Shown here: one piece after another, positions 2,658-45,490 of the stretch
Position numbering within the stretch: the first letter of the stretch is position 1
How the letters are laid out: every line of letters begins with the position of its first letter
Assembly: GCA_963813025.1 (NCBI GenBank)
Contig: CAWEXO010000004.1
Coordinates: 1 to 64,000, forward strand
Reading direction: 5' to 3'
DNA from: an uncultured Verrucomicrobiae bacterium
GTDB taxonomy: Bacteria > Verrucomicrobiota > Verrucomicrobiia > Chthoniobacterales > JAFAMB01
Length of the DNA stretch: 64,000 nt
The notes under the pieces: model-generated
What the model was told of the DNA's origin: nothing
The model's input: the letters and a program-made list of their open reading frames with translations, nothing else
Databases searched by the model: none
Program-made: the position numbers and the translations under genes

Positions 2658-2773
2658 GGTAGGGCGAAAATTCATTCGAGCCTTAGCGAGAACTTGTTTG
2701 AGCCGTCTTGGCTATGGCAACTCCATCGTCCGGCTCAAACGAGTCCTCGCCGAAGGCTCAAATGAAATTTTCG
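2658..2773. repeat. Family A repeat, left part (continues at 4459 after the IS110 insertion)
   Basis: Near-identical to 1514-1636 but stops at AAATTTTCG; the missing CCCTACCGAAGCAGG appears at 4459-4473. Confidence 0.9.
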
Positions 2774-2941
2774 TATAGCAAGTCCGGAGTTATTCAGCAA
2801 GCTGTGGTCGGAGGCCCTACCGGTCGAAGCTCCAGCTTGTGAATAACTCCGCCCGGAGAAAAGAAAGCTTTGGAAAAAAGAAAGGGTTTTCTTTGCCAAG
2901 GGCAGTCGGGCAAAATCCCGCGCTGCCCACGCGAAGAAGGA

Positions 2942-3095
2942 CGCGCCGGCTGGCTACGAATAGGATTTTCGGGTCCGCGAGATCTTTAGGGCAGAGTTTC
3001 GAGCCAGCCGGTCGCGCTTTGATTCGTCACAACGAATACTCTAGTTGAGGTCGAGCACTTCACACTTCGACGACTTAACTATACGGATTTCGGAC
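2942..3095 (+). ncRNA. Putative bridge RNA of IS110 element A
   Basis: Stem GCGCCGGCTGGCT(2943-2955)/AGCCAGCCGGTCGC(3002-3015) encloses ATTTTCG (2965-2971) and TAGGGC (2987-2992), matching both sides of the insertion site; second hairpin about 3042-3081. Ends are approximate. Confidence 0.65.
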
Positions 3096-3151
3096 GGCCA
3101 AAGCCAAGCGGCTTTTTTCGCGCTGGGTAAAACCAGAAAAAAGGAGCAAGC

Positions 3152-4426
3152 ATGAACCGATCAAATCCGTTTCCGGTCCCAGATCCCCATTATATGGTCA
3201 GCGTGGGAATCGATTGGGCTGATAAAGAACACGCTGTCTGTCAACGCTCTGGTCCGGAGGGAGGATGCCGGACATTCCAGCTGGGCGCCGATCCCGTTTC
3301 GGTTCGGACCTGGCTCGAAGAGCTCAAAAGCTTGGCTGGTCCGCAGGGGCGGGTGGCCATTGGTTTTGAACAAAATCGGGGAGCACTCTTTGAAATGCTC
3401 CGCACCCAGGGAGACTGGATCGACCTCTATCCGCTCAATCCTTTGAGTTTAAGCGAATACCGCAAGGTCTTCTTTACTAGTGGCGCCAAGGATGACCCTC
3501 GCGACAGCCAATTGATCGAAGAGCTCGTTGATCACCATCGGGATCGGCTCCGGCTTTATCAACCCCCGGAGCCGGTAGTGCGGGAACTGGATTTGCTCGG
3601 TCAGCACCGACGCAAAGCCGTCGAGGCCTCCGTGGTGTGCGAAAACCAACTCACCAGCTTACTCAAAGTCTACTATCCGCTGGCCCTCGAGCTCCTCGAT
3701 GATTTGGGCACCACTCTGGCGCTGCATTTTTTGAAACGCTGGCCGACCCTGCAGAGTTTAAAAAAAGCCAAGCCCCAGACCCTGCGCTCTTTTTTTTATC
3801 AGCACCACAGCCGCAGCCAGAGCTTGATCGAGGAGCGCTTGGAAAAGATTGCTCGGGCCCAAACCGTCACCGAGGATCGTTCTCTGCTGGAGCCCTCCGT
3901 GCTGAGTTGCAAGTGTTTGGTCAGTCAATTGTTGCCGCTGCGAGATTCCATCAAGGCTTTTGACAAAGCCATCCACACTCTGTTTGCCAAACATCCCGAT
4001 CGGCACATTTTTGAAAGTCTGCCCGGAGCCGGCCCGCAATTAGCCCCGCGCTTGTTGGTGGCTTTTGGCTCCAATCGGCAGGCTTTTGCCCAAGCCCTGG
4101 AGGTACAGAAAAAAAGCGGAATCGCTCCGGTCCAAGTGCGCAGCGGCCAAACCAAAAGCGTCCAGCGGCGGCGCTTTCGCTCCAAATTCCTGTGCCAGAG
4201 CTTCCACGAATTCGCGGCTCATTCCATTCCTTATTCCCAATGGGCCAAGCTCTATTATCAAGAGCAAATGGCCCGCGGTAAGTCCCACCACACTGCCGTG
4301 CGCGCCTTGGCCTTTAAATGGATCCGCGTCATCTTCCGGCTCTGGCAGGACCGCACCCCTTATGACGAAGAGCGCTACCTCCAAGTCCTCAAAAAACGCC
4401 ACTCACCAATCGGTGAAAAACTTTAA
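3152..4426 (+). CDS. IS110-family transposase/recombinase
   Basis: DEDD RuvC-like motifs VGIDWADKEH, IGFEQ, GAKDDPRDS; C-terminal SLPGAGPQLAPRLL and RSG serine motif; AGGAG RBS. Confidence 0.95.
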   Translation: MNRSNPFPVPDPHYMVSVGIDWADKEHAVCQRSGPEGGCRTFQLGADPVSVRTWLEELKSLAGPQGRVAIGFEQNRGALFEMLRTQGDWIDLYPLNPLSLSEYRKVFFTSGAKDDPRDSQLIEELVDHHRDRLRLYQPPEPVVRELDLLGQHRRKAVEASVVCENQLTSLLKVYYPLALELLDDLGTTLALHFLKRWPTLQSLKKAKPQTLRSFFYQHHSRSQSLIEERLEKIARAQTVTEDRSLLEPSVLSCKCLVSQLLPLRDSIKAFDKAIHTLFAKHPDRHIFESLPGAGPQLAPRLLVAFGSNRQAFAQALEVQKKSGIAPVQVRSGQTKSVQRRRFRSKFLCQSFHEFAAHSIPYSQWAKLYYQEQMARGKSHHTAVRALAFKWIRVIFRLWQDRTPYDEERYLQVLKKRHSPIGEKL

Positions 4427-4602
4427 CTTTTTCCCTTGCCAGACCTGCTCAGATACTACCCTACCGAAGCAGGGTCGGAAGCAACCTTGCGAGGCCAACC
4501 TTTCCATTCATCGGGCCGTGCGCTGATTATTTCCGGTCGGTGGTTCGCAGGGGGAATCTACTTCGCTTGCTGTTTAGCGGGTTTTATGGTTAACTTGTTT
4601 CC

Positions 4603-4875
4603 ATGAAAGCTACGATCGACTTTGAGGATGAGCTTTACCGCCGATTGAAAGCAACCGCCGCCCTGGAGGGACGCAAGGTCAAGGATTTGGTCGCCGAGGC
4701 GGTTCGCTCCCTTTTGACGGATGAAAAGCCGGCGCTCCGTCGACGCAAGCGAATCCAATTGCCGGTGGTGAAGTCCAAGAAGCCAGGAACACTCGCTCTG
4801 ACAAGCGAGGCGATTGCTGAACTGGAAACTCTGTTGGACCTAAGAGGACGCAATAAACAACCGGGCGGCCGTTAA
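4603..4875 (+). CDS. Orphan RHH antitoxin-like protein
   Basis: MKATIDFEDELYRRLKATAALEGRKVKDLVAEAVRSLL resembles VapB/CopG antitoxins; no toxin gene follows. Confidence 0.7.
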   Translation: MKATIDFEDELYRRLKATAALEGRKVKDLVAEAVRSLLTDEKPALRRRKRIQLPVVKSKKPGTLALTSEAIAELETLLDLRGRNKQPGGR

Positions 4876-5293
4876 TGTTTATCGTCAATTCCGAGCTGAC
4901 CCCCGGGTCGGATGGCTGGAAGAACCAGTTGGCGAAGACCAACCGGGCCGGACCAGAACGCGCCAATCTTTTTTTGAGTCGGGCGAATGATTCTAACGAA
5001 TTTGTCTTCTTCGCGATCTTAGCGAGCTTCTGTTTAAAATCCTCGACATTATCGGCTTCGGAAAGAGAACACCGAAGGCATGAAACAAGAAAACAAATTG
5101 TAATATAAGTCGATTACTCCGTACTACTGTCGGTGAAAAATGTTGTTTTCCTGCGAGGCGAGGACTCGTTTGAGCCGGGCGCCGGAGTTGCCACCGCCCA
5201 AGGTTTGAGCAGCATTTTCGTGGGCGTTGGAGTGATGATTTGGTTCCACACGATCAAAGCCGATATTTTTGCTATTTGAAATGCACTGGATTT

Positions 5294-5686
5294 ATGAGCA
5301 AGCGGGGCGGTAAAGAGAAGCGATCGAGGAAAGCGAGTCTGGGTTTCGAGGCATTTTCCTTTGGATCGATCCGCATTAATGGAACGACCTATGATTACGA
5401 CGTGGTGATCGATCGCTGCCACGTAAGCAAGCGGAATAAGAAACCATCAAAAAAGTTCCGCTCCTCCCTTGGACACACGCCGCTCTCAATCGAGGAGGAC
5501 ATACCCTGGAAGTGCCGGCGGCTGGTCGTCGGTACGGGTACCGGAGCCTTGCCGATCATGGACGAGGTTAAGCGTGAAGCCGATCGCCGCGAAATCGAAT
5601 TGGTCATTCTTCCGACGGCAGACGCGATCAAGACGTTTCAGGAGAATCCTGATAAGACCAACGCGATCCTGCACGTAACGTGCTAA
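5294..5686 (+). CDS. Mth938/NDUFAF3-like domain protein
   Basis: FSFGSIRINGTTYDYDVVI, LVVGTG.GALPIMDEV and AILHVTC motifs; start uncertain. Confidence 0.8.
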   Translation: MSKRGGKEKRSRKASLGFEAFSFGSIRINGTTYDYDVVIDRCHVSKRNKKPSKKFRSSLGHTPLSIEEDIPWKCRRLVVGTGTGALPIMDEVKREADRREIELVILPTADAIKTFQENPDKTNAILHVTC

Positions 5687-5753
5687 AGTTGAGCTAAATC
5701 AAACATCGAGGCCGTCCAATGAAAGACCGTGTGGGTTTAGTCGCAGGTGCCTA

Positions 5754-5896
5754 CCTGCTGACGGAGCCTTGTGAACACGGGCTCATGTTCCAACCCTGTT
5801 TGGAACGGCCTAAGATACGGTTCGGTCTTTTGCAAGGTGCGGCACGAGGAGGGGGGACTAATCTAGCGGACAGGTTCTACCGACCTTTGGGCGAAG
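5754..5896 (-). ncRNA. Orphan/truncated copy of the IS110 element B bridge RNA region
   Basis: Closely similar to 45213-45353; no transposase ORF adjacent; fused to family A repeat sequence at GGCGAAG. Confidence 0.7.
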
Positions 5897-5922
5897 ACTC
5901 GTTCGAGCCGGGCGCTGCGGCA

Positions 5923-6070
5923 GGTCACACTGAAGACGGCTCAAACAAGTTCTCGCTAAGGCTCGAATAAATTTTCGCCCTACCGGCGCAGGACCAAAGA
6001 CGCTTTGGGACATGTCTCGAACCTTAGCTCGATTGCGCGAGCTACAGATTGACCAAAGTCCGACAGACCC
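5923..6070. repeat. Family A repeat half with outer arm
   Basis: Reverse complement of 54500-54647 with one mismatch seen by eye. Confidence 0.9.
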
Positions 6071-6221
6071 AAAAAGGCCTTGCAGGCAGACCCTTTCGTT
6101 TTGGGCTACCGTTGGCCAATGATGCGCCCCGCCACGGCCACCAGCTCCGCGTTGTCCCGTCTCGACCGCCTTGAAAAAGGTTTCCACTTCGCCCCGACAA
6201 ACGCCCGGCGTTCGATAGTCC

Positions 6222-7436
6222 TTAGTCCTTGGGAAGTGCGACCAAGGGGGTCTCGCGCATCTCGGTTGGACGCTGGTGCTGGATGCTCTGTACCCTTTGC
6301 AGCGCCTGATCGACTGCCGCTTTGTCTGGCAAAAAGGTGTAAGTGATGTCGAAGCGGCGTTGCTCTTTCGGACCAATGGTCGGCACGCGATTCAACGCGC
6401 GTTGATAGCTGCGGTTATAGGCAAAGCTAGTGCCCGGTTCAAGGCCAGTGACATATCCCTGAGCGAGCGTATCTGTGTTTTTCCATAGCGAGAGCACGGG
6501 CAACTGTTGAATGTTAAAACCGAGGCTGATCCCAAGGTTACCCGCTGTGTTATGCAGCACGGCTAGCGTCTGGCCCTGCTCATCCCCGTACGGCACTACG
6601 TTGAACACAGTTTCGTCGTAGTCGCGCGTCGGTGGTTTGTAGGTCTGGTAATCACTGAGTTCAGGCGCCGCCCTATCATTGAAGGGGGAAACCTGCTGCA
6701 CAGGGGCGCTGAAGCCGGCCCCCGGGTCCAACAAGGGCGGACCAAAGTTGCTGTGGTAGAGCGCCTCGTATTCCTTGGGGTAGTCGCCCTGGTTTGTCAG
6801 CGTGTCGTGCAAGCTAAACTGTCGAGCGCCGGGTTCGGTGCTCAACTCTGTCGCGATAACAAAATTTACTAATTTGAACGCCTGTTCCTTCAAATCGCCT
6901 TTCAGTCGGATGGTGTAGGGTGGATCCTCGTCGATGCTCAGCACGACTTTCGAAGCCGGAATGTTGGCTGCGAGGCCATGCAAGGGGAGCATTACGCCTT
7001 TATCCATACCGGGGTGGCCAACCCATTCATAACCGCAACGAGTGACCATCTCATTAAAACCTTCAAGCCATCCTAGACCGCCACGTCCGTTTAGTTGAAT
7101 GAACGCCGGATTAACTACTTCGCTCACGGGCGAATGCCAACCGATCCGAACGTCTCCGGAAACAGCTTCCAAAACGTTCATGCCCCGCGTGGGGACCACC
7201 GAAATTCTCATCGCGCCAGTGTCGATGTCGACGATACTTACGCCTTCCTGACGTCCACCATGCAGAACGCGCATCCTGACGGAGAACGGTTTGTCAGGTT
7301 TCAAACCGAGATCCTGGCTGGTGATCTGCCAATTCTCTGCGGCCTTATCAGTATCGAGCAGTACGCGCTCCCAAGCAAGCGCCGGAGCGCCGGTCAGTAC
7401 GGCGCACAAACCGAGGAGGGAAACGATCGCTTTCAT
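6222..7436 (-). CDS. Secreted aldose 1-epimerase-family (DUF4432-like) protein
   Basis: LHGGRQEGV, VPTRGM, LPLHG, YHSNFGPPLL and GYVTGLEPGT motifs; N-terminal signal peptide MKAIVSLLGLCAVLTGAPALA. Confidence 0.85.
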   Translation of the reverse strand: MKAIVSLLGLCAVLTGAPALAWERVLLDTDKAAENWQITSQDLGLKPDKPFSVRMRVLHGGRQEGVSIVDIDTGAMRISVVPTRGMNVLEAVSGDVRIGWHSPVSEVVNPAFIQLNGRGGLGWLEGFNEMVTRCGYEWVGHPGMDKGVMLPLHGLAANIPASKVVLSIDEDPPYTIRLKGDLKEQAFKLVNFVIATELSTEPGARQFSLHDTLTNQGDYPKEYEALYHSNFGPPLLDPGAGFSAPVQQVSPFNDRAAPELSDYQTYKPPTRDYDETVFNVVPYGDEQGQTLAVLHNTAGNLGISLGFNIQQLPVLSLWKNTDTLAQGYVTGLEPGTSFAYNRSYQRALNRVPTIGPKEQRRFDITYTFLPDKAAVDQALQRVQSIQHQRPTEMRETPLVALPKD

Positions 7437-7550
7437 GACGGTGTATAGCATCTTTCTACACGGACTGCGAGTCCATTGTAAGGTCACACTCTCCGAAATC
7501 GAACCGAGAAGCGCTCGTCCCTGCACTTCGACCGCTCATCGGGCAGAAGG

Positions 7551-9296: not shown

Positions 9297-9309
9297 TGTT
9301 TTGTGGTAT

Positions 9310-9623
9310 CTAGTGCGCCGTCTCATATATAACGATGACGTCGCCGCAGGTCAGTTGGCTGTTTTTCAAGGCGGTCCGAGCCGGACTGGCAGTAGAAGCG
9401 TCCATATCTGGATTCATACGGATCGAGGTCCAAGCCGGACTGGCAGTAGCAACGCCGAAAAACAGCCAACTGGCCGCGGCCCGAAGGGTTGCGTTGAAAA
9501 TGGGCCGGCGGCGGCGTTGCACCTCGGTCACGTATCGTTTCAGATATGCTCCCTCCTCGCGCCTTGCCGGCGGCCCATTTTGAACGCAACGACATCATCG
9601 GTATATATGAGACGGTGCACTAG
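9310..9623. mobile_element. MITE flanked by CTAG with about 30-bp terminal inverted repeats
   Basis: CTAGTGCGCCGTCTCATATATAACGATGA ... TCATCGGTATATATGAGACGGTGCACTAG; internal palindromes; a solo end at 16453-16467. Confidence 0.8.
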
Positions 9624-13449: not shown

Positions 13450-16224
13450 ATGCCAATCCGCAAATCCGTTAGTGCCGCCGGCCAGCGTGTAGCACGACAA
13501 TCCGCCCTAAAACTCTTTACTGATCGAAACCATGAGCGCGAGCTTCTGCGCCATTTCTTCGAACGATTGGCTAGGGTCCACGGGGTGCACGACGTACGGT
13601 CCGAAAAGCCACTCCTGAGTATTTGGGGAGTCGGTGGGATCGGCAAAACTAAACTGTTGGAGAAAGCCATAGAAGAACTTGGCCAGAGGCTTGCCGGGCT
13701 ACGGTTGATTTCTCTCGATCTGGATCATGACCGGTGGACACCATCTTCCTCTGTGGCCGAGTTCTTCTGGCATTTGCGTTCTCGGCTATGGGAGGCAAAA
13801 CCGCGCGGCATCGGAGGCGGAGCCCGCATTGAAACACCGCTTTTCGATTATCTCTATTTCGCTCTCTGGCGAGCGCAGCATCCGGGTGAGAATTTTGCTT
13901 TGAATGACAGCGTGTTAAAGGACCTCCTAAACACTTCCACGCTAGGCACCACGATTCTCGCGGAAGCATCCGGGAAGCTGGCCGCGGGAGTTTACGATGT
14001 CGCTACTGCAGGTTCTGCCGTGGGTGGTCTGTTTCAGTTGCTCGGTAAAGCGCTGACTTACTTGCGCAACCGAGATCGCAAGGGCTTGTTGAATAAACGC
14101 GGGCTAAACCCTGAGTCCATGACTGAAAAGGACATGGAGGCGGAGTTGGCGCCCGTGCTAGCCGCGGATGTGGAGCAATGGCTGGAGGACCATCCCAATG
14201 ACGCGCTTTGCGTCGCGATCGATGGGTTTGAACGTATTCAATCAACCACTCTAGCAGAGGACATCCAGAAATATTTGGCCGACTGGTGCGGGATACTGAC
14301 GGATCCCGACGGGGCGTTCTCCGGACGCTTTGGCTGCGTGTTGCTTGGGCGAAATAAGAACCGTTGGGATGAGCTTTACGACACGGAATGGCAGACGCGA
14401 ATCAGTGAACACTCCGTTGGCGGACTCGGAAAAGAAGACGCGCTGAGATTTCTAGAATCGGCAGGGACTTATCATAAAGAACACGGAGACCTGACTACGG
14501 CCGACAATTTGCGAAAACACGCGGACGCGATCCTTGCGGTCACTCGGGAGCAGCGTAGCCAGGACAAACCGTCGTCATTCCACCCTTATTACCTCGACCT
14601 CGCCTATGGCATTGTCTATGAGCAGGGAGTTCACTTCCGACCCGCTGACTTAGGCCAAACGCCGGCTGAACTGCAAATCCGCTTTCTTCGCTATCTACAA
14701 ACAGGGCAGCGAGGGGTGTTCGAAACCTTTCGTTGCCTGGCACTAGCTGGCACCTTCGATGAAGCGCTTTTCGATCATCTTGTTGCGTTACGCTTGATTC
14801 CAGCTGGCTTCCATTTCGCGGCCCTCACCGGAGAGGATTACTCTTACGTGGAGGAAATTCGCGATCTTCCCGGAACATTCCGGTTCCATCGATTGATGGA
14901 ACTAGCCCTCATTAAAGATCAGTCAGCAAAGGCAGAGGACCGGCCCGTGGCTCGCGAGCGTATTGATGCGATCTTGGACTATTTCAAAAACAAGGCGGAG
15001 TTTTCGAAACTCGCCGACTGTTCCCAATGGCATCTCAGTGCATACCAGAAAGGGATGACGATAGCGTTCGACAGGCATCATGACGGTTTATTAGACTTTC
15101 CGTCTTTGGATGCGTTCTTCCTCGCACTGGAAGAGCCATTTGATTTCACAGCGTTTGTCGGTGCGCGAATCGATTGGTGGCGCAAGCTGGCTCATCTGTG
15201 GAAGCGCCATCAGCCAGAGGATGAGCGTTCATTAGACACCTTGTCTGGTCTTGCTGCAATGCTGCATGCGCAAGGCCAATATGGAGAGGCAGAAGATGTG
15301 GAACGTCAGATCCTTCAAAGCTCTGAGCGCGTGCTTGGGTCCGACCACCCGAACACACTGTCGTCGATGAACAACCTGGCCCAGACGCTGAAAGCGCAAG
15401 GAGACCTGGCCAAGGCACACGAGCTCCAGGAGCAGGTGGTCGAAGCCATGGCTCGGCTGCTGGGTAAGGAGCACCCGGACACACTGACGTCGATGAACAA
15501 CCTGGCCCAAACGTTATATGCACAAGGAGATCTGACCGGGGCACGCAAGCTCCAGGAGGAGGTGCTTGAGGCCATGGCTCGGCTGCTGGGTAAGGAGCAC
15601 CCGGACACACTGACGTCGATGAACAACCTGGCCCAGACGCTGAAAGCGCAAGGAGATCTGGCCAGGGCGCACAAGCTCCAGGAGCAGGTGCTTGAGGCCA
15701 GGGCTCGGCTGCTGGGTAAGGAGCATCCGGACACACTGACGTCGATGAACAACCTGGCCCAGACGCTTTACGCGCAAGGAGATCCGGCCGGGGCACGCAA
15801 GCTCCAGGAGCAGGTGCTTGAGGCCATGGCTCGGCTGCTGGGTAAGGAGCACCCGAACACGCTGACGTCCATGAACAACCTGGCCCAGACGCTTTACGCG
15901 CAAGGAGATCTGGCCCGGGCACGCGAGCTCCAGGAGCAGGTCCTCGAGGCCAGGACTCGGCTGCTGGGTAAGGAGCACCCGCACACACTGACGTCGATGA
16001 ACAACCTGGCCCAAACGTTATATGCAGAAGGAGATCCGGCCGGGGCACGCAAGCTCCAGGAGCAGGTGCTCGAGGCCATGGCTCGGCTGCTGGGTAAGGA
16101 GCACCCAAACACACTGACGTCGATGCTCAACTTGGCCCAGATGCTGCAAGCGGAAGGAGATTTGGCCGGGGCCGAGCGGCTTTACCGACTGGCGCTGGAA
16201 GGCCGCAAGCGCGTGCTTGGATAA
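13450..16224 (+). CDS. P-loop NTPase (STAND-like) with C-terminal 42-aa TPR repeats
   Basis: FTDRNHE, Walker A GVGGIGKT, Walker B-like VAIDGFE; seven HPxTLTSMNNLA repeats. Start uncertain. Confidence 0.85.
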   Translation: MPIRKSVSAAGQRVARQSALKLFTDRNHERELLRHFFERLARVHGVHDVRSEKPLLSIWGVGGIGKTKLLEKAIEELGQRLAGLRLISLDLDHDRWTPSSSVAEFFWHLRSRLWEAKPRGIGGGARIETPLFDYLYFALWRAQHPGENFALNDSVLKDLLNTSTLGTTILAEASGKLAAGVYDVATAGSAVGGLFQLLGKALTYLRNRDRKGLLNKRGLNPESMTEKDMEAELAPVLAADVEQWLEDHPNDALCVAIDGFERIQSTTLAEDIQKYLADWCGILTDPDGAFSGRFGCVLLGRNKNRWDELYDTEWQTRISEHSVGGLGKEDALRFLESAGTYHKEHGDLTTADNLRKHADAILAVTREQRSQDKPSSFHPYYLDLAYGIVYEQGVHFRPADLGQTPAELQIRFLRYLQTGQRGVFETFRCLALAGTFDEALFDHLVALRLIPAGFHFAALTGEDYSYVEEIRDLPGTFRFHRLMELALIKDQSAKAEDRPVARERIDAILDYFKNKAEFSKLADCSQWHLSAYQKGMTIAFDRHHDGLLDFPSLDAFFLALEEPFDFTAFVGARIDWWRKLAHLWKRHQPEDERSLDTLSGLAAMLHAQGQYGEAEDVERQILQSSERVLGSDHPNTLSSMNNLAQTLKAQGDLAKAHELQEQVVEAMARLLGKEHPDTLTSMNNLAQTLYAQGDLTGARKLQEEVLEAMARLLGKEHPDTLTSMNNLAQTLKAQGDLARAHKLQEQVLEARARLLGKEHPDTLTSMNNLAQTLYAQGDPAGARKLQEQVLEAMARLLGKEHPNTLTSMNNLAQTLYAQGDLARARELQEQVLEARTRLLGKEHPHTLTSMNNLAQTLYAEGDPAGARKLQEQVLEAMARLLGKEHPNTLTSMLNLAQMLQAEGDLAGAERLYRLALEGRKRVLG
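15346..16221 (+). repeat. Seven tandem 126-bp TPR-coding repeats
   Basis: Near-identical CACCCGGACACACTGACGTCGATGAACAACCTGGCCCA units at 126-bp period. Confidence 0.9.
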
Positions 16225-16517
16225 CCACGCACTCTGTCTGCCAGCCATGGATCGTTCTCGAGAGCCGGCAATCCTTCGCTCCACGTTCTGAAGAGGGTTA
16301 CTGTCACTTTTCCGTTGAAAAAGTGCTTCTCCAAAGCAGCGTTTTGGTACGTTATCACAAGGTTAGTTTGCCAGGTTTTCGAACTCCGCCGGGGTGAATC
16401 CGATCGATCCGTTTCCGGCTGTGCTTGGGCCCGCGATGGCATCATTATATGAGAGACGGTGCACTAGCTGCACATCTTCCTTGGCCCGAGCACTCGGATT
16501 ACTCCGCCGTTCCAGCC

Positions 16518-19268: not shown

Positions 19269-19394
19269 GGTAGGGCGAAAATTTATTCGAGCCTTAGCGA
19301 GAACTTGTTTGAGCCGGACGCTGAGGTGAGCCAGCCGCTCAGGCGGCTCAAACAAGTTCTCGCCCAAGGGGCTCGAATAAATTTTCGCCCTACC
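19269..19394. repeat. Family A repeat
   Basis: GGTAGGGCGAAAATTTATTCGAGCC...GGCTCGAATAAATTTTCGCCCTACC between convergent genes. Confidence 0.9.
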
Positions 19395-24347: not shown

Positions 24348-24728
24348 GTCGATCTCGCGATCTTGGCCATCTTCTGCTCGATTTCTTCGGTCTTCTCGTT
24401 CCCCTGTCGATTCTCAGAGAGTGTTTTTAACAGAAGGCCACAGCGCGGCGTAGCCGCAACCAAGCGGTCGCGCAAAGTCCGGTGACAGGCTGGAAGGGTG
24501 TTGGATCAATCTGGATCCGGACGAGCTGGAGCTCGTCCCTACCGCCAATCGCTTGATGGCGCGCTACGAATTACCCCAAAGTCCGACGCTCCCTGGAAGC
24601 CTGTGCCACATTTCCACCGTTACACCGGCATTTTCGGTCTGTCGGACTCTGGAAATCTGTAGGACGCCATCAAGCATCTGGTCGCGCCAGCGCTAGGATC
24701 GTCTCAGAATGCCGCACTGTCCTGCGCC

Positions 24729-24812: not shown

Positions 24813-25028
24813 CTGATGTTTATTAATAGCGCGGCTCTGCGGAGAATCTTCTTTGTGACCTTGGCGATCTTCTGTTCAATTTCTTTGGTGTTCTCGTTGC
24901 AGAACGACGATGAGCACTTGCACGATTTTGGTTGCGGCTAACCGCGTTATGATTATTCGTTTGTCTTTCGAAGCAAACTTTAGCAGCACGCTGCCCGTTG
25001 CCATTGTTCCCGCTTCCAAGGAGTGCTG

Positions 25029-28126: not shown

Positions 28127-28427
28127 GGACGTGTCGGGCTTTGGGTAATCTGTGGTGCGCGCAATCGAGCTATGGTTCGGAGAGGAGGTTAGAGACTGCC
28201 CCACACCGTCTTTGGTCCTGCACCGGTAGGGCGAAAATTTATTTGAGCCGGACGCTGGTTCGAGCCATCCGTTCCAGACGGCTCCGCCTTCGCCAAGACT
28301 ATGGCGGACACGTCAAACAAGTTCTCGCTAAGGCTCAAATAAATTTTCGCCCTACCGCCACAGCACTAGCTCTCGCGCGATCAATCGCTTGGTGGCGTAC
28401 TACAGATTTCCAAAGTCCGACAGAAGC
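28127..28427. mobile_element. Full-length family A composite MITE (outer TIRs plus inner GTAG palindrome 28225-28356)
   Basis: Outer arms GTGTCGGGCTTTGGGTAATCTGT / ACAGATTTCCAAAGTCCGACAG enclose the inner repeat. Confidence 0.75.
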
Positions 28428-29957: not shown

Positions 29958-30064
29958 GGTAGGGCGAAAATTTATTTGAGCCGGACGCTTGGGTGAGCCA
30001 CCCGCTCCAGATGGCTCCGCTTTCGCCAAGGCTAATTGAGGCTCAAATAAATTTTCGCCCTACC
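29958..30064. repeat. Family A repeat
   Basis: Both terminal arms present. Confidence 0.9.
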
Positions 30065-36606: not shown

Positions 36607-37364
36607 TAAAATCTATGATGCTGTACGCTCGGCCAGGGCCGCGCCCGATTGGTTTCAGATCACCTGCGCCTCTTCCATCCATGCGCAGCGGTAGATGACA
36701 GGATATTCGAGATTAGGCCGGATCCGACGGCGGCCGGAGCGCGCCTTTTACAAGGTCGATGGCGCGCAGCATCTCTGCGAGGATCTCGGCGATGCTCGCT
36801 CTTTTGACAATGTGTGTTTGAGCCAAGCTGCGGATGCGAGCATTGGACGAAAGGTGGACTAGGCTGTTTGTTTCTAAGCTGACCCGATTGTTGCCTCAAG
36901 TTGCTGAGGCGACACCGGCTTTACCAGATGGACCCGGAACTCGGTGGCATGGCTGCGTCCGACAGCTTCCTGCAGCCTGACCGAAAAATTACGGGACTTA
37001 AACGCGGCAAGCGCATTCAACACAATGTCCATCGTATCGGCGTCGCAGGGGAAATCTAGTGGAAATCCTAGTAAAAGGTGCCTGATACCTCGATCAGGGA
37101 TCCACCCGATCTCATTTGATGATGACGCCCTATTAACACAGCCCCGAATCAGGCTGCAAAATTGATGTGAGGAGCGCCTGCCTGAACTATTCCTCGCTAG
37201 TGCTCAGAGACGGCATCGACCGAATTATTCTCAAGGATTTCTCTTCTTTGTGATCTTTGCGCGCTTCTGTTAGATCTCTTCGGTGTTCTCGATTCCTGCC
37301 GTGATCTTCGTATCCTTCTGTGCAAGGTCCGTTTTGATGTTGCCTGCGGGCCCAGACGCGCGAC

Positions 37365-38408: not shown

Positions 38409-38466
38409 TTTTTCCCGAAACCGCGAGAGCTAGAGATCGTCTCAGAATGCCCCACTGTCCTGTGGC

Positions 38467-38569
38467 GGTAGGGCGAAAATTTATTCGAGCCTTAGCGAGA
38501 ACTTGTTTGAGCCGGACGCTTGGGTGAGCCACCCCTCCAGATGGCTCAAACACAAGTTTTCGCCCTACC
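38467..38569. repeat. Family A repeat
   Basis: Both terminal arms; outer arm extends to about 38667. Confidence 0.9.
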
Positions 38570-38758
38570 GGCGCACGGCCAAAGACGCCTTGGGACATCC
38601 CTCGAACCCTCCCTTCCGAACCATGGCTCGATTGCGCGCTACAGATTGCCCAAGGTCCGATAGACCCGAGAACGCCCGTGACTCCGCATGCTGCCGGTCA
38701 GCCCTGGCGCCGAGGCGGCTTGCAACATGGGAGACTGTATGGGAGGTGCTCTCTTGGA

Positions 38759-39499: not shown

Positions 39500-39525
39500 T
39501 CCAACTTTCGGCCGCAAATCCTGAA

Positions 39526-40179
39526 ATGTCCTATTCCGCTCAACATTTGGCCGAGGCCGGCGACATCATCGTCCGGCTCGATCCGGCCACTCTCGAAAAG
39601 ATGGTCGAGCACCTTTTACGGATCCGGGACCAGGGTGGGCGCCTCTTCTTTCTCGGTGTCGGAGGGAGTGCGGCGAATGCATCGCACGCCGTTAATGATT
39701 TCCGCAAGATCGCTGGCTTTGAAGCCTATGCTCCGACTGACAATGTCTCGGAGCTGACCGCGCGGACAAATGACGAAGGATGGCAGTCCGTGTTTGTCGA
39801 ATGGCTCCGAGGCAGTCGCTTAAGAAGAGAAGATGGCCTGTTCGTCTTTTCCGTTGGCGGCGGCAGCCTGGAAAAGAACGTTAGCCCCAATCTGGTCTCC
39901 GCCCTGGAGTTTGCTAAGGAAGTCGGTGCTACCGTTTTCGGCATTGTCGGCCGGGACGGTGGCTACACCGCGAAAGTCGCCGATGTTTGTTGCATTGTTC
40001 CGACGGTGAATCCCCAAAATGTCACGCCTCACGCGGAGGCGTTTCAGGCGGTGATCTGGCATTTGCTGGTCTCTCATCCGAAACTCAAGCTGCAACAAAC
40101 CAAATGGGAAAGGGCGGAAAGCGGAGGGAGCTGTGGGAGCGCGGAAAGCGGCGGGAGCGGCCTCAGCGGAGGGAGGTAG
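39526..40179 (+). CDS. gmhA: SIS-domain phosphoheptose isomerase
   Basis: GVGGSAANASHAVNDF, LTARTND. Confidence 0.8.
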   Translation: MSYSAQHLAEAGDIIVRLDPATLEKMVEHLLRIRDQGGRLFFLGVGGSAANASHAVNDFRKIAGFEAYAPTDNVSELTARTNDEGWQSVFVEWLRGSRLRREDGLFVFSVGGGSLEKNVSPNLVSALEFAKEVGATVFGIVGRDGGYTAKVADVCCIVPTVNPQNVTPHAEAFQAVIWHLLVSHPKLKLQQTKWERAESGGSCGSAESGGSGLSGGR

Positions 40180-40397
40180 CTGGAGAGTGCGCAGCTGATA
40201 GGATGCAGAAAGCAAAGATGCGCGAACCTCCTCAATCACCTGCGAACGAGAGAGATATGATCAGCGAGGCCGCGCCTCAGCATGACGAGATTTACAGGAA
40301 AAAGGCGCGTTGGAGATATGGCCTAACACTTGGTCAGCGGCCCTCGCTGTACAGAGTCCTTGAAAGGCGAAGAATAGAATAAGGGGAAAAGATCCGC

Positions 40398-41003
40398 GTG
40401 AAGAAACGTGATTCATCTACGCCGAACTTCAGTGTCAAGGACTCTAGATCGAGAACTGAGCGGAGAGCGGTTTTCCTGGATCGCGATGGCGTGATCAACC
40501 GACCGATCGTGCGCGAAGGAAAGCCATATCCTCCTACGACGGTGGAGCAGTTTGAGATCTTGCCAGGGGTGCCGGAAGGCTGCCAGAGATTGCACGATGC
40601 AGGCTTTTTGTTGATCGTTGCGACCAACCAGCCGGATGTTGGACGAGGCAACTTGGAGCGTTCAAGGGTGGAGGAGATCCATGCGGCGATGCTCAAGTCG
40701 GTACCGATCGATCAGGTGCTCGTATGCTATCACGCAGGCGAAGCTTTCGGGGAGAGCTGCAATTGTCGCAAACCGAAACCCGGTATGCTCTTGAGCGCGG
40801 CCAAAGCATTTGGGATTGACCTCGCGCAATCTTTCATGATTGGTGATCGATGGCGCGATATGGAGTGCGGACGTCGCGCCGGCTGCCGAACCATTTTCGT
40901 AGACTGGGATTATCGGGAGGTCTGCGCTGAGGAGCCGAATTATCGAGTGTCAAATCTGATGGAAGCGGCAGAGATCGTCGTTTCGAACTCGGCCCAACAG
41001 TGA
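40398..41003 (+). CDS. gmhB: Heptose-1,7-bisphosphate phosphatase (HAD IIIA)
   Basis: FLDRDGVIN, TNQ, CNCRKPKPGM, MIGDRWRD. Confidence 0.85.
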   Translation: MKKRDSSTPNFSVKDSRSRTERRAVFLDRDGVINRPIVREGKPYPPTTVEQFEILPGVPEGCQRLHDAGFLLIVATNQPDVGRGNLERSRVEEIHAAMLKSVPIDQVLVCYHAGEAFGESCNCRKPKPGMLLSAAKAFGIDLAQSFMIGDRWRDMECGRRAGCRTIFVDWDYREVCAEEPNYRVSNLMEAAEIVVSNSAQQ

Positions 41004-41719
41004 AAACGATTGAAAATCTCGCGGTAAAGATCTTTGCGGACGGCGCGGATCGAGCTGGAATGATCAGCCTCTATCGCAATCCGTTGATCAAAGGTCTGAC
41101 AACTAATCCTACCTTGATGCGCAAGGCAGGCGTTCAGGATTTTGAGCGGTTTGCCCGACAAATTCTCGAGACTGTTCGGGACAAACCGATTTCCTTTGAG
41201 GTCTTTTCGGATGACTTCGCGGAGATGAAGAGGCAGGCGCTGAAGATTCGGGATTGGCAACGGAATGTTTTCGTAAAGATCCCGGTGACGAATTCCCACG
41301 GCGATTCCTCCATTCCGCTGATCCAAGAGTTGGCGCGGGAAGGTGTGCAACTGAATATCACGGCAATCCTGACTTTGCGCCAGGTGAAGGAGGTAACCAC
41401 CGTCCTCGCTTCCGAGGTAGCAGCGGTGGTGTCGGTCTTCGCAGGTCGCGTCGCTGATACCGGACGCGACCCGGCTCCAATCATGCGGGCGAGCAAGGCG
41501 CTGCTCGCAGACTTGCCGCGGGCCGAGCTTCTTTGGGCGAGCGTGCGCGAAGTTTTGAACATCGTGCAGGCCGACGAGTGCGGCAGTGACATTGTCACGG
41601 TTCCACACGATATTTTGAACAAGGCACAAAAGCTGATTGGACAAGACTTGGACGCGCTCTCTGTTGACACCGTCCGGATGTTCGCGCGAGACGCTCGCGA
41701 GGCCGGTTTTATCTTGTAA
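41000..41719 (+). CDS. tal: Transaldolase (short type)
   Basis: IFADGAD, TTNPTL, VKIP, SVFAGR, LWASVRE. Confidence 0.85.
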   Translation: MKTIENLAVKIFADGADRAGMISLYRNPLIKGLTTNPTLMRKAGVQDFERFARQILETVRDKPISFEVFSDDFAEMKRQALKIRDWQRNVFVKIPVTNSHGDSSIPLIQELAREGVQLNITAILTLRQVKEVTTVLASEVAAVVSVFAGRVADTGRDPAPIMRASKALLADLPRAELLWASVREVLNIVQADECGSDIVTVPHDILNKAQKLIGQDLDALSVDTVRMFARDAREAGFIL

Positions 41720-41988
41720 GCGTTTTCACGTTTCCGGTTTCGCGTTTGTGACGGGAGAAGGGTTTTCCTGTGATTAATCTACGAGGAGCTGAACAGTTTG
41801 ATTTGAAGATTCACTGGCAGAGTGGGCGTGTCGGACATTGGAAATCTGTAGTACGCCATCAAGCGATTGATCGCGCGAGAGTTAGAGACCGTCTCAGAAC
41901 GCCGCTCTGCCCTACCGGCGCAGGACCAAGGACGCGTTGGGACCTCCCTCTAACGTGTCAAGCGTTGCAAGACATTTTCCAGGAAATC

Positions 41989-43590
41989 TTACAGTTCAAC
42001 GATGTCCAAGAGCACGACTCCGGATCGACTGATTGTATGCAATGTATGCCCCCAGTCAGGCTCCGTCTGCTGTCTTTGACGGCGTAAGCTTAAATAGATT
42101 CTTGGCGCTTCTCCTGCTATCGCCCGCCGCAATCTCACGGCCGGCTGGGGTGGTGCCAACATGAAATAATCGGTTAGCTCTGGCAACGCATTCGAAGAAT
42201 AAATGATTTCCGACACTCCGGAGGGTCGGTAATATTCGCGCACCCAGATTGCTGCCTCGCGAAAGGCAGTACCCCAATATTCCAGCTCAAATTGTCTATT
42301 TGCTTGTGCTAATCCTCCTGCAACCAGCCGATTGAAGTAAATATACTCATAAGGATGCAGCGCGCGCATATCCATTATCGTTACTAGGACCAGAAACAGA
42401 TAGAGCCCCAACGTTACCGTCTGAACTGTCCTGTTCCTAACCACTTCCAAAAACGTGCATAGACCAAACGCCGCAAGGATTATTAGTGGGGGAATCGTGA
42501 AAAGCACATGTCTGAAATTGTCGTAGAGCGGCACATGCTTTAAGACGATAACCATCAGCGGACCGGCAGCTGCCGCCAAAATTATGCTTACCGCGAGGGA
42601 GTGGCGGTCAAGCACAACCCGCCTTGACAGGACTGCGCGCAGCCCTGAGACCAGGCCCAATAGCCAACTTAGCAGAATGAACTCGGGAAGGCAATTGGTT
42701 AACAGTACTGGCAAATAACCGTAGGGAAGTTGTGTCCACTTAATTAAATGACCTCCAAAAAAGACCGTGCTGTTCCACGGAAAGCTGGAAAACTCCTTTA
42801 GCGCGACAAAGGGAGCGCCGATAAACGGGAGTCCGAAGAATGGTGCTGTGAGATGCCGCTTCCAAGCAAAGGGCCAGCAGAATAGCATAACTAACCACGC
42901 CAGAAAGATGATCGCGACCACATGCGTCGCACCCGCTGTTACGAGATACCTAGCCAACACTCGGCGATCCTTGCTTTTAATATTCCAGAGCACGGAACAA
43001 AAAAGGCTGCCAATTAGAACAGGAAATAACGCGAGAGCAGCAACGCGCATTCCTAGCGCGGCACCCAGAAACACACCAGTTTTGGTCGTATGGCTCCATT
43101 TCAACTCGGGAAAATCGATCGCGATTCGAACAATGTGGCAAAGGCTTAGGACGTAAAGCGCGGCAAATGGGATATCTTTTGGGTTAATGAATTCGTGGCC
43201 GTAGTAGACAGGTGTCAGCGTCAGAAACAGTGCGGAAATAAGCCCAACCATCGGACCGAAAGCTAGTGTTCCGAGCTGAAATGTTGCCCAGACGCCGAGC
43301 AATCCGAAGAGAGCACTTGTTAGATTGCGGCCTTCGAGCCAACCCAGGTGTGTTAAGCGTGTCACGGCTGCCGACAGAAGTTCGAACAAACCTCCGTAAA
43401 GCCGAAGTTCGTGCGTTCGCGCAGCCGCGTTGCGGCCAAGGCTCTCATAGAAATCCAGAACCGCTTTACCGTACTCATGTTGAACCGGTTGGTCCCAGCT
43501 CATGCCGTAATCACCAAAGCTGAGCAAAATCACGACGAGATGGCATGTTAACAAAAGGGCAAATGCCTGATAGATGCGTTTGCTCGACAT
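41989..43590 (-). CDS. ArnT/GT39-like membrane glycosyltransferase
   Basis: DYGMSWDQ, YGGLFE, NPKDIPFA, LYDNFRH, HPYEYIYFN and EYWG; many TM segments. Confidence 0.8.
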   Translation of the reverse strand: MSSKRIYQAFALLLTCHLVVILLSFGDYGMSWDQPVQHEYGKAVLDFYESLGRNAAARTHELRLYGGLFELLSAAVTRLTHLGWLEGRNLTSALFGLLGVWATFQLGTLAFGPMVGLISALFLTLTPVYYGHEFINPKDIPFAALYVLSLCHIVRIAIDFPELKWSHTTKTGVFLGAALGMRVAALALFPVLIGSLFCSVLWNIKSKDRRVLARYLVTAGATHVVAIIFLAWLVMLFCWPFAWKRHLTAPFFGLPFIGAPFVALKEFSSFPWNSTVFFGGHLIKWTQLPYGYLPVLLTNCLPEFILLSWLLGLVSGLRAVLSRRVVLDRHSLAVSIILAAAAGPLMVIVLKHVPLYDNFRHVLFTIPPLIILAAFGLCTFLEVVRNRTVQTVTLGLYLFLVLVTIMDMRALHPYEYIYFNRLVAGGLAQANRQFELEYWGTAFREAAIWVREYYRPSGVSEIIYSSNALPELTDYFMLAPPQPAVRLRRAIAGEAPRIYLSLRRQRQQTEPDWGHTLHTISRSGVVLLDIVEL

Positions 43591-44143
43591 GGCTCATTTC
43601 GGGTCAAAGTAGCCCTTAATCTTGTTGTTACCGCCGGCTTTGGTCGAGAAGATTATCAGCGCTGCCAGTGCTAGTGCCAGTGTGAGTTGAAGACTCTTTG
43701 CGTCCGGTTTCGCGTTTGTGCGGGAGAAGGGTGGCGGACTAGGTCGCGTGTCTTAGCGATTTCTTTGCGCACAGAGGTAACGGAGCACACAGAGGGCGCC
43801 TTAGCCGTTGATCGGGCTTTGATGCCACTCGTAAGCTGCGCTTTCGCCAAAATAAGAAGATAAGAGAGGCGTTAGAGGAGCGCCGCGAATTCTGGCGAAC
43901 CGCTCGTCCTTCGCTAAAGCTTTCGAATCGGTGAAAATCTGTGTTAATCGGTAGTTCACCTTTCTGGTTCGCGTTGTGCGGGTAGGACAAGCTTCCAGGT
44001 TGTCAGGTTTCAGGACCGGCAGGATGGATCTGCCAGACTTTTGAGTTATCTGTGGCCCACGCGCTGGAGCTATGGTTCGGAAGGGAGGTTAGAGACTTGT
44101 CCCAACACGTCTTTGATTCTGTGCCGGTAGATACGGTCTTGGA

Positions 44144-44149
44144 TGTCAA
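44144..44149 (-). promoter_or_regulatory. -35 box (TTGACA) of a circle-junction promoter
   Basis: On circularisation TTGACA is followed by 17 nt and then TACCTT (45448-45443). Confidence 0.7.
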
Positions 44150-45156
44150 GGGCATTGCTTTAAGGAATGGCGGGCCAGATTAGGGTTGTAGGGTTGTTGG
44201 TGAGAGAGAACACCGAAGGCGATGTGCAGGAGTTTTCGCATGACGGCACCGCGGATAGCCAGGGAGTGGAGCTTGCGTGACTCGAGACCTGCGGCCCATT
44301 GCTGGATGGGTTTACACCAGCGGCGAGCAACGGCGGCCGGCAAATAGAGTGCTTTGCGCAGGAAAGGGTTGCCGATTTTGCACAGGGTGGTTTTGCCGTA
44401 GAGCGAGACACCGGAACGGAATTCAGAAGGAGTCAGCCCAGCATAGGCCGCCAACTGCCGAGCCGATTGGAACTCTTTACCGGCCAGCTCGGCCAGCAGC
44501 TTGGCGGCCGTGAGCTGGGCAATGCCGGGAATAGAGCACAGCAGTTGGCTTTGGCGGCTTAAAGCCTGATCAGCCGCGACTAAGCCGAAGATGGCCGACT
44601 CCAGCTGAGCGATTTCTTTCTTGAGCTGGGCGAGTCGTTGGCCACGCTGTTGGCTGACAAGCTCGGGCAGCGCAATTGGGTAAGGGTCTTTTTTCACCCG
44701 GTTCTGTTCCCGGATGAGCTCGCCAACCCGGCTTTCGCGCTCCCGCACCAGCAGTTTGAATTCTTCCTCAAGGGGGCGCAGCGGCCGAGTGGCCAGTGGT
44801 TTTCGCTCCAGACAAAACTGGGCAATGATGGCCGCATCAACCCGATCATTTTTGGTGCGGCGCAGGACCGAGAAAGCAAAGTATTTGACTTGGGCGGGAT
44901 TGAGCACGCTGACCGCCAAGCCTGCTTGGTGCAGAGCGGCGATCAATCTCTTCCCGTAGACCCCGGTGGCTTCCAGGGCGAAGTGGATCTGGGAGAGCGG
45001 CCAAGAGCGGGCCTGGAGTTGGGCTAAAAATGCTCCAATGCCGGTCGCATCATTGCTGAACTTTCCCCGCCACAGGCGAGTGCCATTCTTGGAGAGCAGG
45101 CAAAAGTCAAAGCTTGCTTTTGCCATATCAATACCCATGCAGTAGCGTTTTTTCAT
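44146..45156 (-). CDS. IS110-family transposase/recombinase
   Basis: GIDMAK, ALEATG, KNDRVDA, SIPGIA, AYAGLTP.EFRSG, GNPFLRKALY. Confidence 0.95.
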   Translation of the reverse strand: MKKRYCMGIDMAKASFDFCLLSKNGTRLWRGKFSNDATGIGAFLAQLQARSWPLSQIHFALEATGVYGKRLIAALHQAGLAVSVLNPAQVKYFAFSVLRRTKNDRVDAAIIAQFCLERKPLATRPLRPLEEEFKLLVRERESRVGELIREQNRVKKDPYPIALPELVSQQRGQRLAQLKKEIAQLESAIFGLVAADQALSRQSQLLCSIPGIAQLTAAKLLAELAGKEFQSARQLAAYAGLTPSEFRSGVSLYGKTTLCKIGNPFLRKALYLPAAVARRWCKPIQQWAAGLESRKLHSLAIRGAVMRKLLHIAFGVLSHQQPYNPNLARHSLKQCP

Positions 45157-45204
45157 CAGACAGGAATTCGCGTTGAATTGGTTCTTTGTTTGATGAAGCG
45201 CTTG

Positions 45205-45436
45205 GGCGCGCGCCTGCTGACAGAGCCTTGTGAACACGGCTTATGTTCCAACCCTGTTTGGAACGGCCTAAGATACGGTACGGTCTTATGCAGGTGCGGC
45301 ACGAGGAAGGGTGGACTAATCTACCGGACAGGTTCTACCGACCTTTGGGCGAGGCAGTTTCCCACCCTCCTCGGCCAAGTTCTTCACCTCCAGAGTTCCG
45401 CCCTTGCGGGCGGCTTTAAAAGGGAAAAAAATTTGG
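45205..45436 (-). ncRNA. Bridge RNA of IS110 element B
   Basis: 5' hairpin (45399-45414), target loop closed by 45303-45314/45362-45372, donor loop closed by 45210-45217/45290-45297; four guide segments match the target and donor. Ends are approximate. Confidence 0.85.
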
Positions 45437-45490
45437 TGGGGCAAGGTACAAGGGCGAAAACTTGTTTGAGCCGTCTGGAGCGGGTGGCTC

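What the first reader, a model, noticed from the sequence alone, without database searches (positions are those of the whole stretch)
2658..45490. Two unrelated IS110 recombinases converge on one terminal motif of a multicopy repeat
Elements A (424 aa) and B (about 336 aa) have dissimilar proteins and non-coding ends, yet both sit in TTTTCGCCCTACC, about 4 nt apart, and both carry guides for it. About a dozen unoccupied copies of the motif remain in this window. Inference: the repeat acts as an abundant intergenic landing pad for RNA-guided elements, and independent guides evolved onto it. The recombinases might also rearrange or spread repeat copies, which could explain the many half and chimeric copies.
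Basis: partly seen in the sequence, partly recalled or inferred. Interest (0 to 1): 0.75.

Follow-up and report, generated by a model that had tools for sequence, protein, structure and literature searches.

The report
Two jumping genes share one repeat
Two distantly related RNA-guided jumping genes in this bacterium both steer themselves into the same end of an abundant palindromic repeat between genes; the overlap is real and clean, but this behaviour is already known from E. coli and Pseudomonas.

Summary
Confirmed, but of a known kind. A (2774-4457, 424 aa) and B (44131-45450, 336 aa, IS621-like) are IS110 elements with 22-24% protein identity. Genome-wide, 11 of 11 A left junctions and 12 of 13 B-family insertions lie in TTYTCGCCCTACC. 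That motif is the GTAG head of a REP: about 190 free arms in inverted doublets, flanking three RAYT-like genes. Each element carries its own bridge-RNA guides. A reads the inner stem (ATTTTCG, single-base G core). B reads the outer flank (CT core; ACCGG at 12 of 12 sites, p=1e-4). Guides covary with targets in relatives. More distant relatives use other repeats, an AU test rejects one origin, and a third, IS1111-like lineage hits B's site in another genome, so convergence holds. Precedent: ISPpu9 and ISPpu10 share one REP base in P. putida, and IS621 inserts at the matching CT. The idea that the recombinases spread or fragment the repeat is not supported: breakpoints avoid both cores, and a relative has the repeat plus RAYT without A or B. 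This scan had already noted A's REP targeting and one-base core elsewhere in this genome. Unexplained: a 13-nt left-end duplication in 3 of 11 A copies.

The parts
2658..2773 (.). REP doublet (REPIN) hosting A: intact left arm (GTAG head at 2658) and right arm up to the core G at 2773
   Evidence: 95% identical to the free doublet region 1497-1629
2774..4457 (+). IS110 element A, 1684 bp; 10 full copies (98.3-100%) and one left-end fragment in the genome
2774..3151 (+). A non-coding left end, predicted bridge RNA: 5' stem-loop 2786-2850, target-binding loop 2946-3011, donor-binding loop about 3020-3095
   Evidence: fold z -5.47, 0 of 100 shuffles as stable; scaffold recurs in relatives
2965..2971 (+). 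A left target guide ATTTTCG
   Evidence: equals the left junction at 11 of 11 sites; covaries in relatives
2987..2993 (+). A right target guide plus handshake base, TAGGGCA
   Evidence: reverse complement equals the right junction in 9 of 10 full copies
3035..3085 (+). A donor guides AATACTC (3035-3041) and CTATACG (3079-3085)
   Evidence: the second is the reverse complement of the left junction
3152..4426 (+). A recombinase, 424 aa
4436..4441 (+). -35-like TTGCCA; 17 nt from TATAGC (2774-2779) once the ends are joined
   Evidence: computed only
4458..4465 (+). Core position (A in this copy) and the right half of the REP head, CCCTACC
5754..5896 (-). Orphan fragment of a B-family bridge-RNA gene, fused to a REP inner unit exactly at its left-target-guide DNA (5889-5896)
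   Evidence: 93.7% over 142 nt; alignment and absence at the matching G001 locus
44124..44130 (-). B right junction: core CT and ACCGG
44131..45450 (-). IS110 element B, 1320 bp; 7 intact copies, 1 with a short deletion, 1 interrupted, 3 internally deleted older derivatives, 1 left-end-only relic
44146..45156 (-). B recombinase, 336 aa, IS621-like
   Evidence: E 3.2e-46 to IS621 (8wt6), E 4.5e-44 to ISCro4
45226..45376 (-). B bridge RNA core: left target guide CTCGCCC (45347-45353), right target guide plus handshake CCGGTAGAT (45319-45327), donor guides at 45271-45279 and 45226-45231
   Evidence: (z -2.97)
45451..45490 (-). B left junction: core CT, TTTTCGCC and the REP hairpin up to the IS256 insertion
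45491..47034 (.). IS256-type element (family recalled from its ends and ORF text, not scanned) in the centre of B's REP doublet, with 8-bp direct repeat GGTGGCTC; the doublet resumes at 47035
1514..1636 (.). Free REP doublet (example); others at 19269-19394, 28225-28356, 29958-30064, 38467-38569
   Evidence: long DNA hairpins, -28 to -57 kcal/mol, no shuffle control

Best explanation
The repeat is a GTAG-headed REP (GGTAG-GGC-GA-stem/loop-GA-GCC) in inverted doublets and mosaics, most likely multiplied by an HUH/Y1 RAYT-like transposase. It offers about 190 safe intergenic sites. Two unrelated IS110 lineages have each reprogrammed the target-binding loop of their bridge RNA to its most conserved part, the head. 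Each element excises as a circle, the joined ends form a promoter for the bridge RNA, and the recombinase-RNA complex pairs with both target strands and recombines at the core. A uses a one-base G core and reads 6 nt of the inner stem, so it takes only TTTT-type arms. B uses the IS621-type CT core two bases further out and reads ACCGG, so it takes only arms followed by GG. The IS110s are riders on the repeat, not its makers. Shown: junctions, guide matches, covariation, separate origins, RAYT association. Inferred: RNA expression, circles, strand-exchange chemistry, RAYT activity on this REP.
For: Junctions. Guide-site agreement: B sites are followed by GG in 12 of 12 vs 84 of 189 free arms, Fisher p=1e-4; A sites are TTTT-type in 11 of 11 vs 136 of 189, p=0.039. 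Cross-checks show no bias: A with GG 4 of 10, B with TTCT 5 of 12. The 12-mer spelled by A's guides occurs 136 times, 135 of them in the repeat by my reading of the flanks. Covariation: A relatives at 68-70% have guide GGTTTTCG and sit on the GGTTTTCG stem variant; 19 of 19 metagenome left ends, about 15 distinct sites, end in TTTCG; A relatives at 40-47% have other guides matching other junctions. B relatives: the right guide tracks ACCGT in G023 and TTTGTG in G012. Trees: 2 changes with A and B, 3 with the third lineage; one clade for A+B rejected, p-AU 1e-45. REP identity: 8 of 192 motifs lie in ORFs of 200 aa or more, which cover 66% of the genome. RAYT-like genes are flanked by the repeat at 3 loci in G000 and near it in G007, G010 and G023. 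Other IS families are at background near the repeat: IS630 groups 1 of 51, 0 of 24, 1 of 12, 0 of 9 ends; background 1.5%. In soil run X1, contigs cover A at depth about 24 with flanks at 0-4 and stop 8-9 nt outside its ends, as a multicopy element with a shared target would (X1 may not be independent of this genome).
Against: The RAYT-like proteins score 59-60 bits, below the NF047646 cut-off of 80, and were not among the Pfam Y1_Tnp hits. One old B relic (C14:421122, 87%) lies outside the repeat, though it still has TCGCC before the core. G015's B relatives and two G000 derivatives have a right guide with one mismatch to their sites. The window copy of A has A instead of G at the right core. 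No circle junction is in the assembly. The proximity test is crude: it scored only 12 of 21 A ends and 12 of 22 B ends because split heads escape its pattern.
Confidence: 0.85

Rival explanations
1. The recombinases themselves spread or fragment the repeat by target-target or element-adjacent recombination, producing the half and chimeric copies.
For: ISPpu10 insertions in REPs mark the borders of amplifications over 100 kb (10.64898/2026.03.19.712850, section 5). G000, with A and B, has 176 motif copies; G001 of the same genus, with neither found, has 11. A clean exchange at the core between two arms would restore the motif and escape my breakpoint count.
Against: Of 329 headless units, 210 are inner tandem units with a degenerate head, 17 are IS junctions, 58 are isolated (31 matches in the reversed-genome control) and 44 are terminal. 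Of the 44, 3 break at A's core and 1 just after B's; 35 break after one or two C. Rebuilt empty sites match free copies across the junction in 16 of 22 cases, up to 99% over 120 nt; the other 6 had no spanning match. G007 (95% complete, 2 contigs) has 60 REP-pattern matches and RAYT-like genes beside them, but no A hit and no B hit at E<=1e-30; it does hold one copy of a third IS110 in the repeat. G001 also lacks a close copy of the RAYT (best 50%). IS621 target-target recombination is reported as inefficient (PMC11208158 passage).
Confidence: 0.07
2. Targeting needs the REP hairpin as well as RNA pairing, so the convergence is partly on a DNA structure (as proposed for ISPpu10).
For: Abstract of 10.64898/2026.03.19.712850. 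The GGC-GA..GA-GCC frame is kept while stems differ across genomes. All three lineages cut within 5 nt of the GTAG head.
Against: Guides alone already confine A to the repeat (135 of 136 sites). One A copy (C16) and one B derivative (C12) sit in a secondary head that lacks the standard hairpin. Metagenome A relatives sit on arms with very different stems.
Confidence: 0.25
3. Not convergence: A and B inherited the target, or swapped bridge RNAs, from a common source.
For: Both lineages also share this REP family in G023, so the pairing is old.
Against: Proteins 22-24% identical; no nucleotide match between the two elements; different scaffolds, cores and registers; each lineage has nearer relatives on other targets; one clade rejected.
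Confidence: 0.02

Closest known systems
ISPpu9 and ISPpu10 in Pseudomonas putida KT2440 REPs (PMC1525189 passages; PMC12288879 passages)
   Same: Two different IS110 elements in one genome, all copies (7 of 7 each) in the same REP, mostly in REP clusters.
   Different: There both insert at the same base and the proteins are 57.8% similar. Here the proteins are 22-24% identical, the cores differ (G vs CT), the cut registers are about 4 nt apart and each element prefers a different subset of arms.
IS621 of E. coli and its bridge RNA (PMC11208160 passages and section 6; PMC11208158 passages)
   Same: B: closest solved relative, CT core inside the complement of the REP's GTAG head (IS621 target ATCAGGCCTAC), the same donor letters at positions 6-10, AU handshake, left-end RNA, junction promoter.
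   Different: Different host, REP and guides. A belongs to a longer-protein clade and has a one-base core, which these papers do not describe in the passages read.
GTAG REP / REPIN / BIME with RAYT (PMC2817692 passages; PMC3733652 passages; 10.1101/2021.07.10.451892 passages)
   Same: GTAG head plus imperfect palindrome, inverted doublets, mosaics, over 100 intergenic copies, flanking an HUH/Y1 gene with an NPxRxG motif; GTAG repeats are known in Verrucomicrobia; REPINs are named as preferred IS targets.
   Different: This sequence family was not found in the text of PMC3733652 (figures and supplements not seen). The RAYT-like gene is in three copies 92-95% identical, whereas REP-linked RAYT groups rarely have near-identical duplicates (10.1101/119735 passages). 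It scores below the NCBIfam cut-off.
IS1111-group REP and attC targeting (ISPa11, ISKpn4, ISPst6; PMC11187229 passages)
   Same: Several family members converge on one structured multicopy target. The third lineage in G007 (L165) has the downstream non-coding region of this group.
   Different: A and B have their non-coding region upstream (IS110 group).

Membership tests
IS110 family (A and B) | N-terminal DEDD RuvC domain plus C-terminal Transposase_20 domain | tested here: met
IS110 group (A and B) | Long non-coding region upstream of the gene | tested here: met
   378 nt in A, 294 nt in B
IS110 group (A and B) | No 11-13 bp subterminal inverted repeats | tested here: inconclusive
   Read by eye only; A has an imperfect 8-of-10 inverted match at offsets unlike those given for IS1111
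Bridge-RNA elements | Two internal loops with left/right target and donor guides that covary with the DNA | tested here: met
Bridge-RNA elements | Joined ends form a sigma70-like promoter | tested here: met
   Computed 17-nt spacing: A TTGCCA and TATAGC, B TTGACA and TACCTT; activity untested
Bridge-RNA elements | RNA is expressed, binds the recombinase, and circles form | not testable with these tools
   No RNA run listed; no circle junction in the assembly or contigs
IS621-type | Two-base CT core at both ends (element B) | tested here: met
   12 of 12 B-family copies with both ends
IS621-type | Two-base CT core at both ends (element A) | tested here: not met
   Only G is shared, 9 of 10 full copies; also in the 68-70% relatives; several 44-47% relatives have CT
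GTAG REP / REPIN | GTAG head followed by an imperfect palindrome | tested here: met
   Stem variants keep pairing across G000, G007, G010, G015, G023, G027
GTAG REP / REPIN | High copy number, intergenic, inverted doublets or mosaics | tested here: met
   143 exact motifs, 193 headed units, 8 of 192 in long ORFs, architectures
GTAG REP / REPIN | Cognate RAYT gene flanked by inverted REPs | tested here: inconclusive
   Three flanked genes with HLH and NPIRAG; best family is NF047646, E 2e-16 to 5e-16, but 59-60 bits against a cut-off of 80
GTAG REP / REPIN | RAYT cleaves or mobilises the REP | not testable with these tools
   Needs biochemistry

The most novel reading that the evidence does not exclude
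This REP family hosts a standing community of at least three unrelated RNA-guided recombinase lineages that divide the arms between them and retune their guides as the REP stem drifts. One of them (A) has moved to a single-base G core whose insertion chemistry recurrently duplicates 13 nt of its own left end. It would be a natural, resolvable case of guide-target co-evolution and niche partitioning, and a bridge recombinase free of the CT-core constraint.
Probability: 0.2. Interest if true: 0.58.

Novelty: new member of a known kind. Interest (0 to 1): 0.3.

Why it matters
It extends REP targeting by IS110 elements to a soil lineage whose nearest named A relatives come from Verrucomicrobiota assemblies (lineage of the window inferred). 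It is a cleaner test of convergence than the P. putida pair, because the proteins, scaffolds, cores and registers all differ. A and B are two natural, probably orthogonal bridge systems for one 13-bp site, and A's one-base G core could widen the targets open to bridge recombinases. It does not change the general picture.

Tried and rejected
1) Repeat as a MITE of a DDE transposon: the outer layer looks like a terminal inverted repeat (118 matches), but I saw no multicopy IS with those ends in the visible part of the self-comparison, so an origin for the outer layers stays open. 2) GCCCTACCGG at 2814-2823 inside A's 5' stem-loop as a decoy or third guide: not conserved in relatives; rejected. 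3) All IS110s of the genome use this motif: no. Family C (about 13 copies) has short CTAG-like sites, 4 of 26 ends near the repeat at other positions; family D 0 of 8. 4) A and B in the same doublet: none; nearest pair 13.5 kb apart. 5) Duplicated unique flanks beside A or B (composite transposition): none within 1.5 kb beyond repeat, IS256 and RAYT sequence. 6) Expression: no RNA holder listed, no evidence either way. 7) No circle or empty-site joint in contigs of X1-X4; contigs cannot show absence. 8) B left-end pattern in viral contigs: 0. 9) Right-half breakpoint scan was uninformative, since the reversed control gave 127 matches against 241. 10) The careful tree did not finish; quick trees are reported, and the AU test used 16 proteins under LG+G4. 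11) The alignment had three rows on the wrong strand and was not used; one search replaced it. 12) Literature: no paper held all of IS110, same target, different, bridge RNA, convergen from 2024 on; two papers listed for IS110, core, single nucleotide, neither read. Subscription papers, including the original IS621 and ISPpu10 reports, are outside the library, and no supplements were read.
Full report
Observation. The window holds two IS110-family genes, 3152-4426 (+, 424 aa) and 44146-45156 (-, 336 aa). Both carry PF01548 and PF02371 and pass NF033542. They share 22-24% identity in weak local alignments and no nucleotide match. B is close to IS621 (E 3e-46); A is distant (E 9e-6). TTTTCGCCCTACC occurs 14 times exactly in the window (19 with two mismatches, 1.72 expected) and 143 times in the 4.4-Mb genome.

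Genome-wide junctions. A has 10 full copies and one left fragment. All 11 left junctions end in ATTTTCG, and all 10 right junctions continue CCCTACC after a core base that is G in 9 and A in the window copy. B has 12 copies with both ends (7 intact, 1 with a short deletion, 1 interrupted by another IS, 3 internally deleted derivatives about 90% identical). All 12 are in the repeat, with a CT core and ACCGG to the right; two have a changed base to the left. A thirteenth, left-end-only relic lies outside the repeat. Other IS110 families of the genome use other sites, and other IS families lie near the repeat at about background rate (a crude test that also undercounts A and B).

Guides. A's 378-nt left end folds well (z -5.47). 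Its target loop holds ATTTTCG and TAGGGCA, its donor loop AATACTC and CTATACG. The two right-hand guides each extend by a base that pairs with the junction product, not the substrate, which matches the handshake pairing described for IS621 (PMC11208158 passages). B's left end (z -2.97) holds CTCGCCC and CCGGTAGAT, plus donor guides. Site choice follows the guides: B sites are followed by GG in 12 of 12 against 84 of 189 free arms (p=1e-4); A sites are TTTT-type in 11 of 11 against 136 of 189 (p=0.039); neither shows the other's bias. The 12-mer spelled by A's guides occurs 136 times, 135 in the repeat. Joined ends would give -35 and -10-like hexamers 17 nt apart in both. Expression is untested.

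Convergence. Close A relatives (68-70% identity; L001-L003, L027 and L054, partly overlapping and not counted as independent) carry GGTTTTCG and sit on a stem variant of the same REP. All 19 metagenome left ends, about 15 distinct sites, end in TTTCG. A relatives at 40-47% keep the RNA scaffold with other guides that match other junctions. B relatives at 72-77% in G015, G023 and G026 have the same CT-ACC junction, while those at 49% in G012 use another repeat with matching guides. One mismatch in the right guide is tolerated in G015. G023 holds both an A and a B relative on this REP family. G007 holds a third, 382-aa IS110 (L165; NF033542 136 bits, just under the cut-off) with a downstream non-coding region. 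It is inserted at B's CT in a sister REP unit and carries the words CTTCGCCCT and TGGTAGAT. A quick tree of 33 proteins needs 2 changes for A and B; a 16-protein tree needs 3 with the third lineage, and AU tests reject one clade (p 1e-45 for A+B, 1e-6 for all).

What the repeat is. Read on the other strand the motif is GGTAGGGCGAAAA, a GTAG head followed by GGC-GA-stem-GA-GCC. Stems vary in length and sequence but stay paired across genomes. Arms form inverted doublets of about 78-130 bp that fold into long hairpins, with inner tandem units and up to about 100 bp of outer mosaic. Only 8 of 192 motifs lie in long ORFs. Three genes, 92-95% identical, at C14:454669-455073, C11:605021-605458 and C15:124821-125225 are flanked by the repeat. 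Their best family is REP-associated tyrosine transposase, below the cut-off, with HLH and NPIRAG against the published NP(L/V)(R/K)xG. Homologues in G007, G010 and G023 also have the motif nearby; 8 of the 13 RAYT loci examined have none. I call the repeat a GTAG REP with high confidence and the RAYT link probable.

Do the recombinases spread the repeat? Of 522 hairpin units, 193 have a full head and 329 do not. The 329 are 210 inner tandem units with a worn head, 17 IS junctions, 58 isolated matches, largely chance, and 44 terminal units. Of the 44, 3 break at A's core and 1 just after B's. Rebuilt empty sites match free copies across the junction in 16 of 22 cases. G007 has 60 pattern matches with no A or close B hit. 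Against my reading: G000 has 176 motif copies and G001, without A or B found, has 11; G001 is 79% complete and also lacks the close RAYT, so this does not separate the causes. A precise exchange at a core would not show in my counts. IS110 copies in REPs can border large amplifications, so occasional rearrangement is plausible, but it is not needed here.

Comparison. Tobes and Pareja report ISPpu9 and ISPpu10, dissimilar IS110s, in the same base of the P. putida REP (PMC1525189 passages; PMC12288879 passages). IS621 put 144 of 173 insertions into REPs, at a CT inside the complement of the GTAG head (PMC11208160 passages). The finding is therefore a new member of a known kind. What is particular is the depth of divergence, the offset registers, the division of arms, A's one-base core and the third lineage. 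Earlier notes in this genome (e1-7688196, e1-7688197) covered A's REP targeting and core; a words look-up found no note on the two-element convergence. No supplements were read; IS target tables there may list further shared targets.

Left over. Three of 11 A left junctions carry a tandem repeat of the first 13 nt, in both sequence subtypes, while the nearest sibling of one lacks it. None of 19 metagenome relatives has it. One B relative in G012 has an 11-nt unit repeated at the same place (L085). The guides do not fit the internal site, and I cannot exclude slippage or an assembly effect.

Verdict. Real, well supported, largely precedented. Interest 0.3.

Noticed in passing
G000 C13:92658-92683, C11:77976-77951, C1:207997-207972: 13-nt tandem duplication of A's left end in 3 of 11 copies; a similar 11-nt repeat at the left end of a B relative (L085). 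Unexplained.
   Followed up: partly
window 5754-5896 (-): Orphan B-family bridge-RNA fragment fused to a REP unit at its left-target-guide DNA. Either microhomology deletion or recombination at the guide gene; it keeps the donor loop and a variant right guide.
   Followed up: partly
G000 C14:454669-455073, C11:605021-605458, C15:124821-125225; fragment C11:78014-78091: RAYT-like gene in three near-identical copies with REP flanks at unrelated loci, suggesting it still moves. Two have a B-family element in a flanking doublet and the fragment is next to an A copy; too few to call enriched.
   Followed up: partly
window 1497-1768, 2641-2773 and 4458-4540; genes 1818-2225 and about 4603-4880: Near-duplicate REP doublets with similar downstream flanks bracket a PIN-domain gene and a small antitoxin-like ORF (not scanned). 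Window 1769-5113 is missing at the matching G001 locus, while its genes occur elsewhere in G001.
   Followed up: partly
window 45491-47034; G000 C11:732216-733628: An IS256-type element splits the REP doublet that holds B, and a relative does the same beside another B copy, in the opposite orientation.
   Followed up: partly
G000 C5:185410-185640, C14:330817-331038, C11:985769-985993: Other Y1/RAYT-like genes; two are flanked by a second GTAG repeat family (over 100 matches), so the genome has several REP families.
   Followed up: partly
G000 C13:18498-20151: A family-D IS110 copy sits in a third palindromic repeat that does not match its left guide, unlike its 99% identical siblings, and abuts a 10-kb self-inverted region (C13:8361-18494) that may be a fold-back or an assembly artefact.
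   Followed up: no
L165 (G007:C2:1171850-1175068): IS1111-like 382-aa element in a tandem REP array at B's CT core, with guide words like B's downstream of the gene.
   Followed up: partly
window 15206-16261, 61953-62064, 62515-64000: Coding repeats: 126-nt TPR units and repeats in an autotransporter with passenger-associated repeats.
   Followed up: no
window about 5000-5080, 24349-24398, 24847-24896, 37242-37291, 49289-49338: A separate dispersed 50-nt repeat family (D12), also matched in G001; not examined.
   Followed up: no
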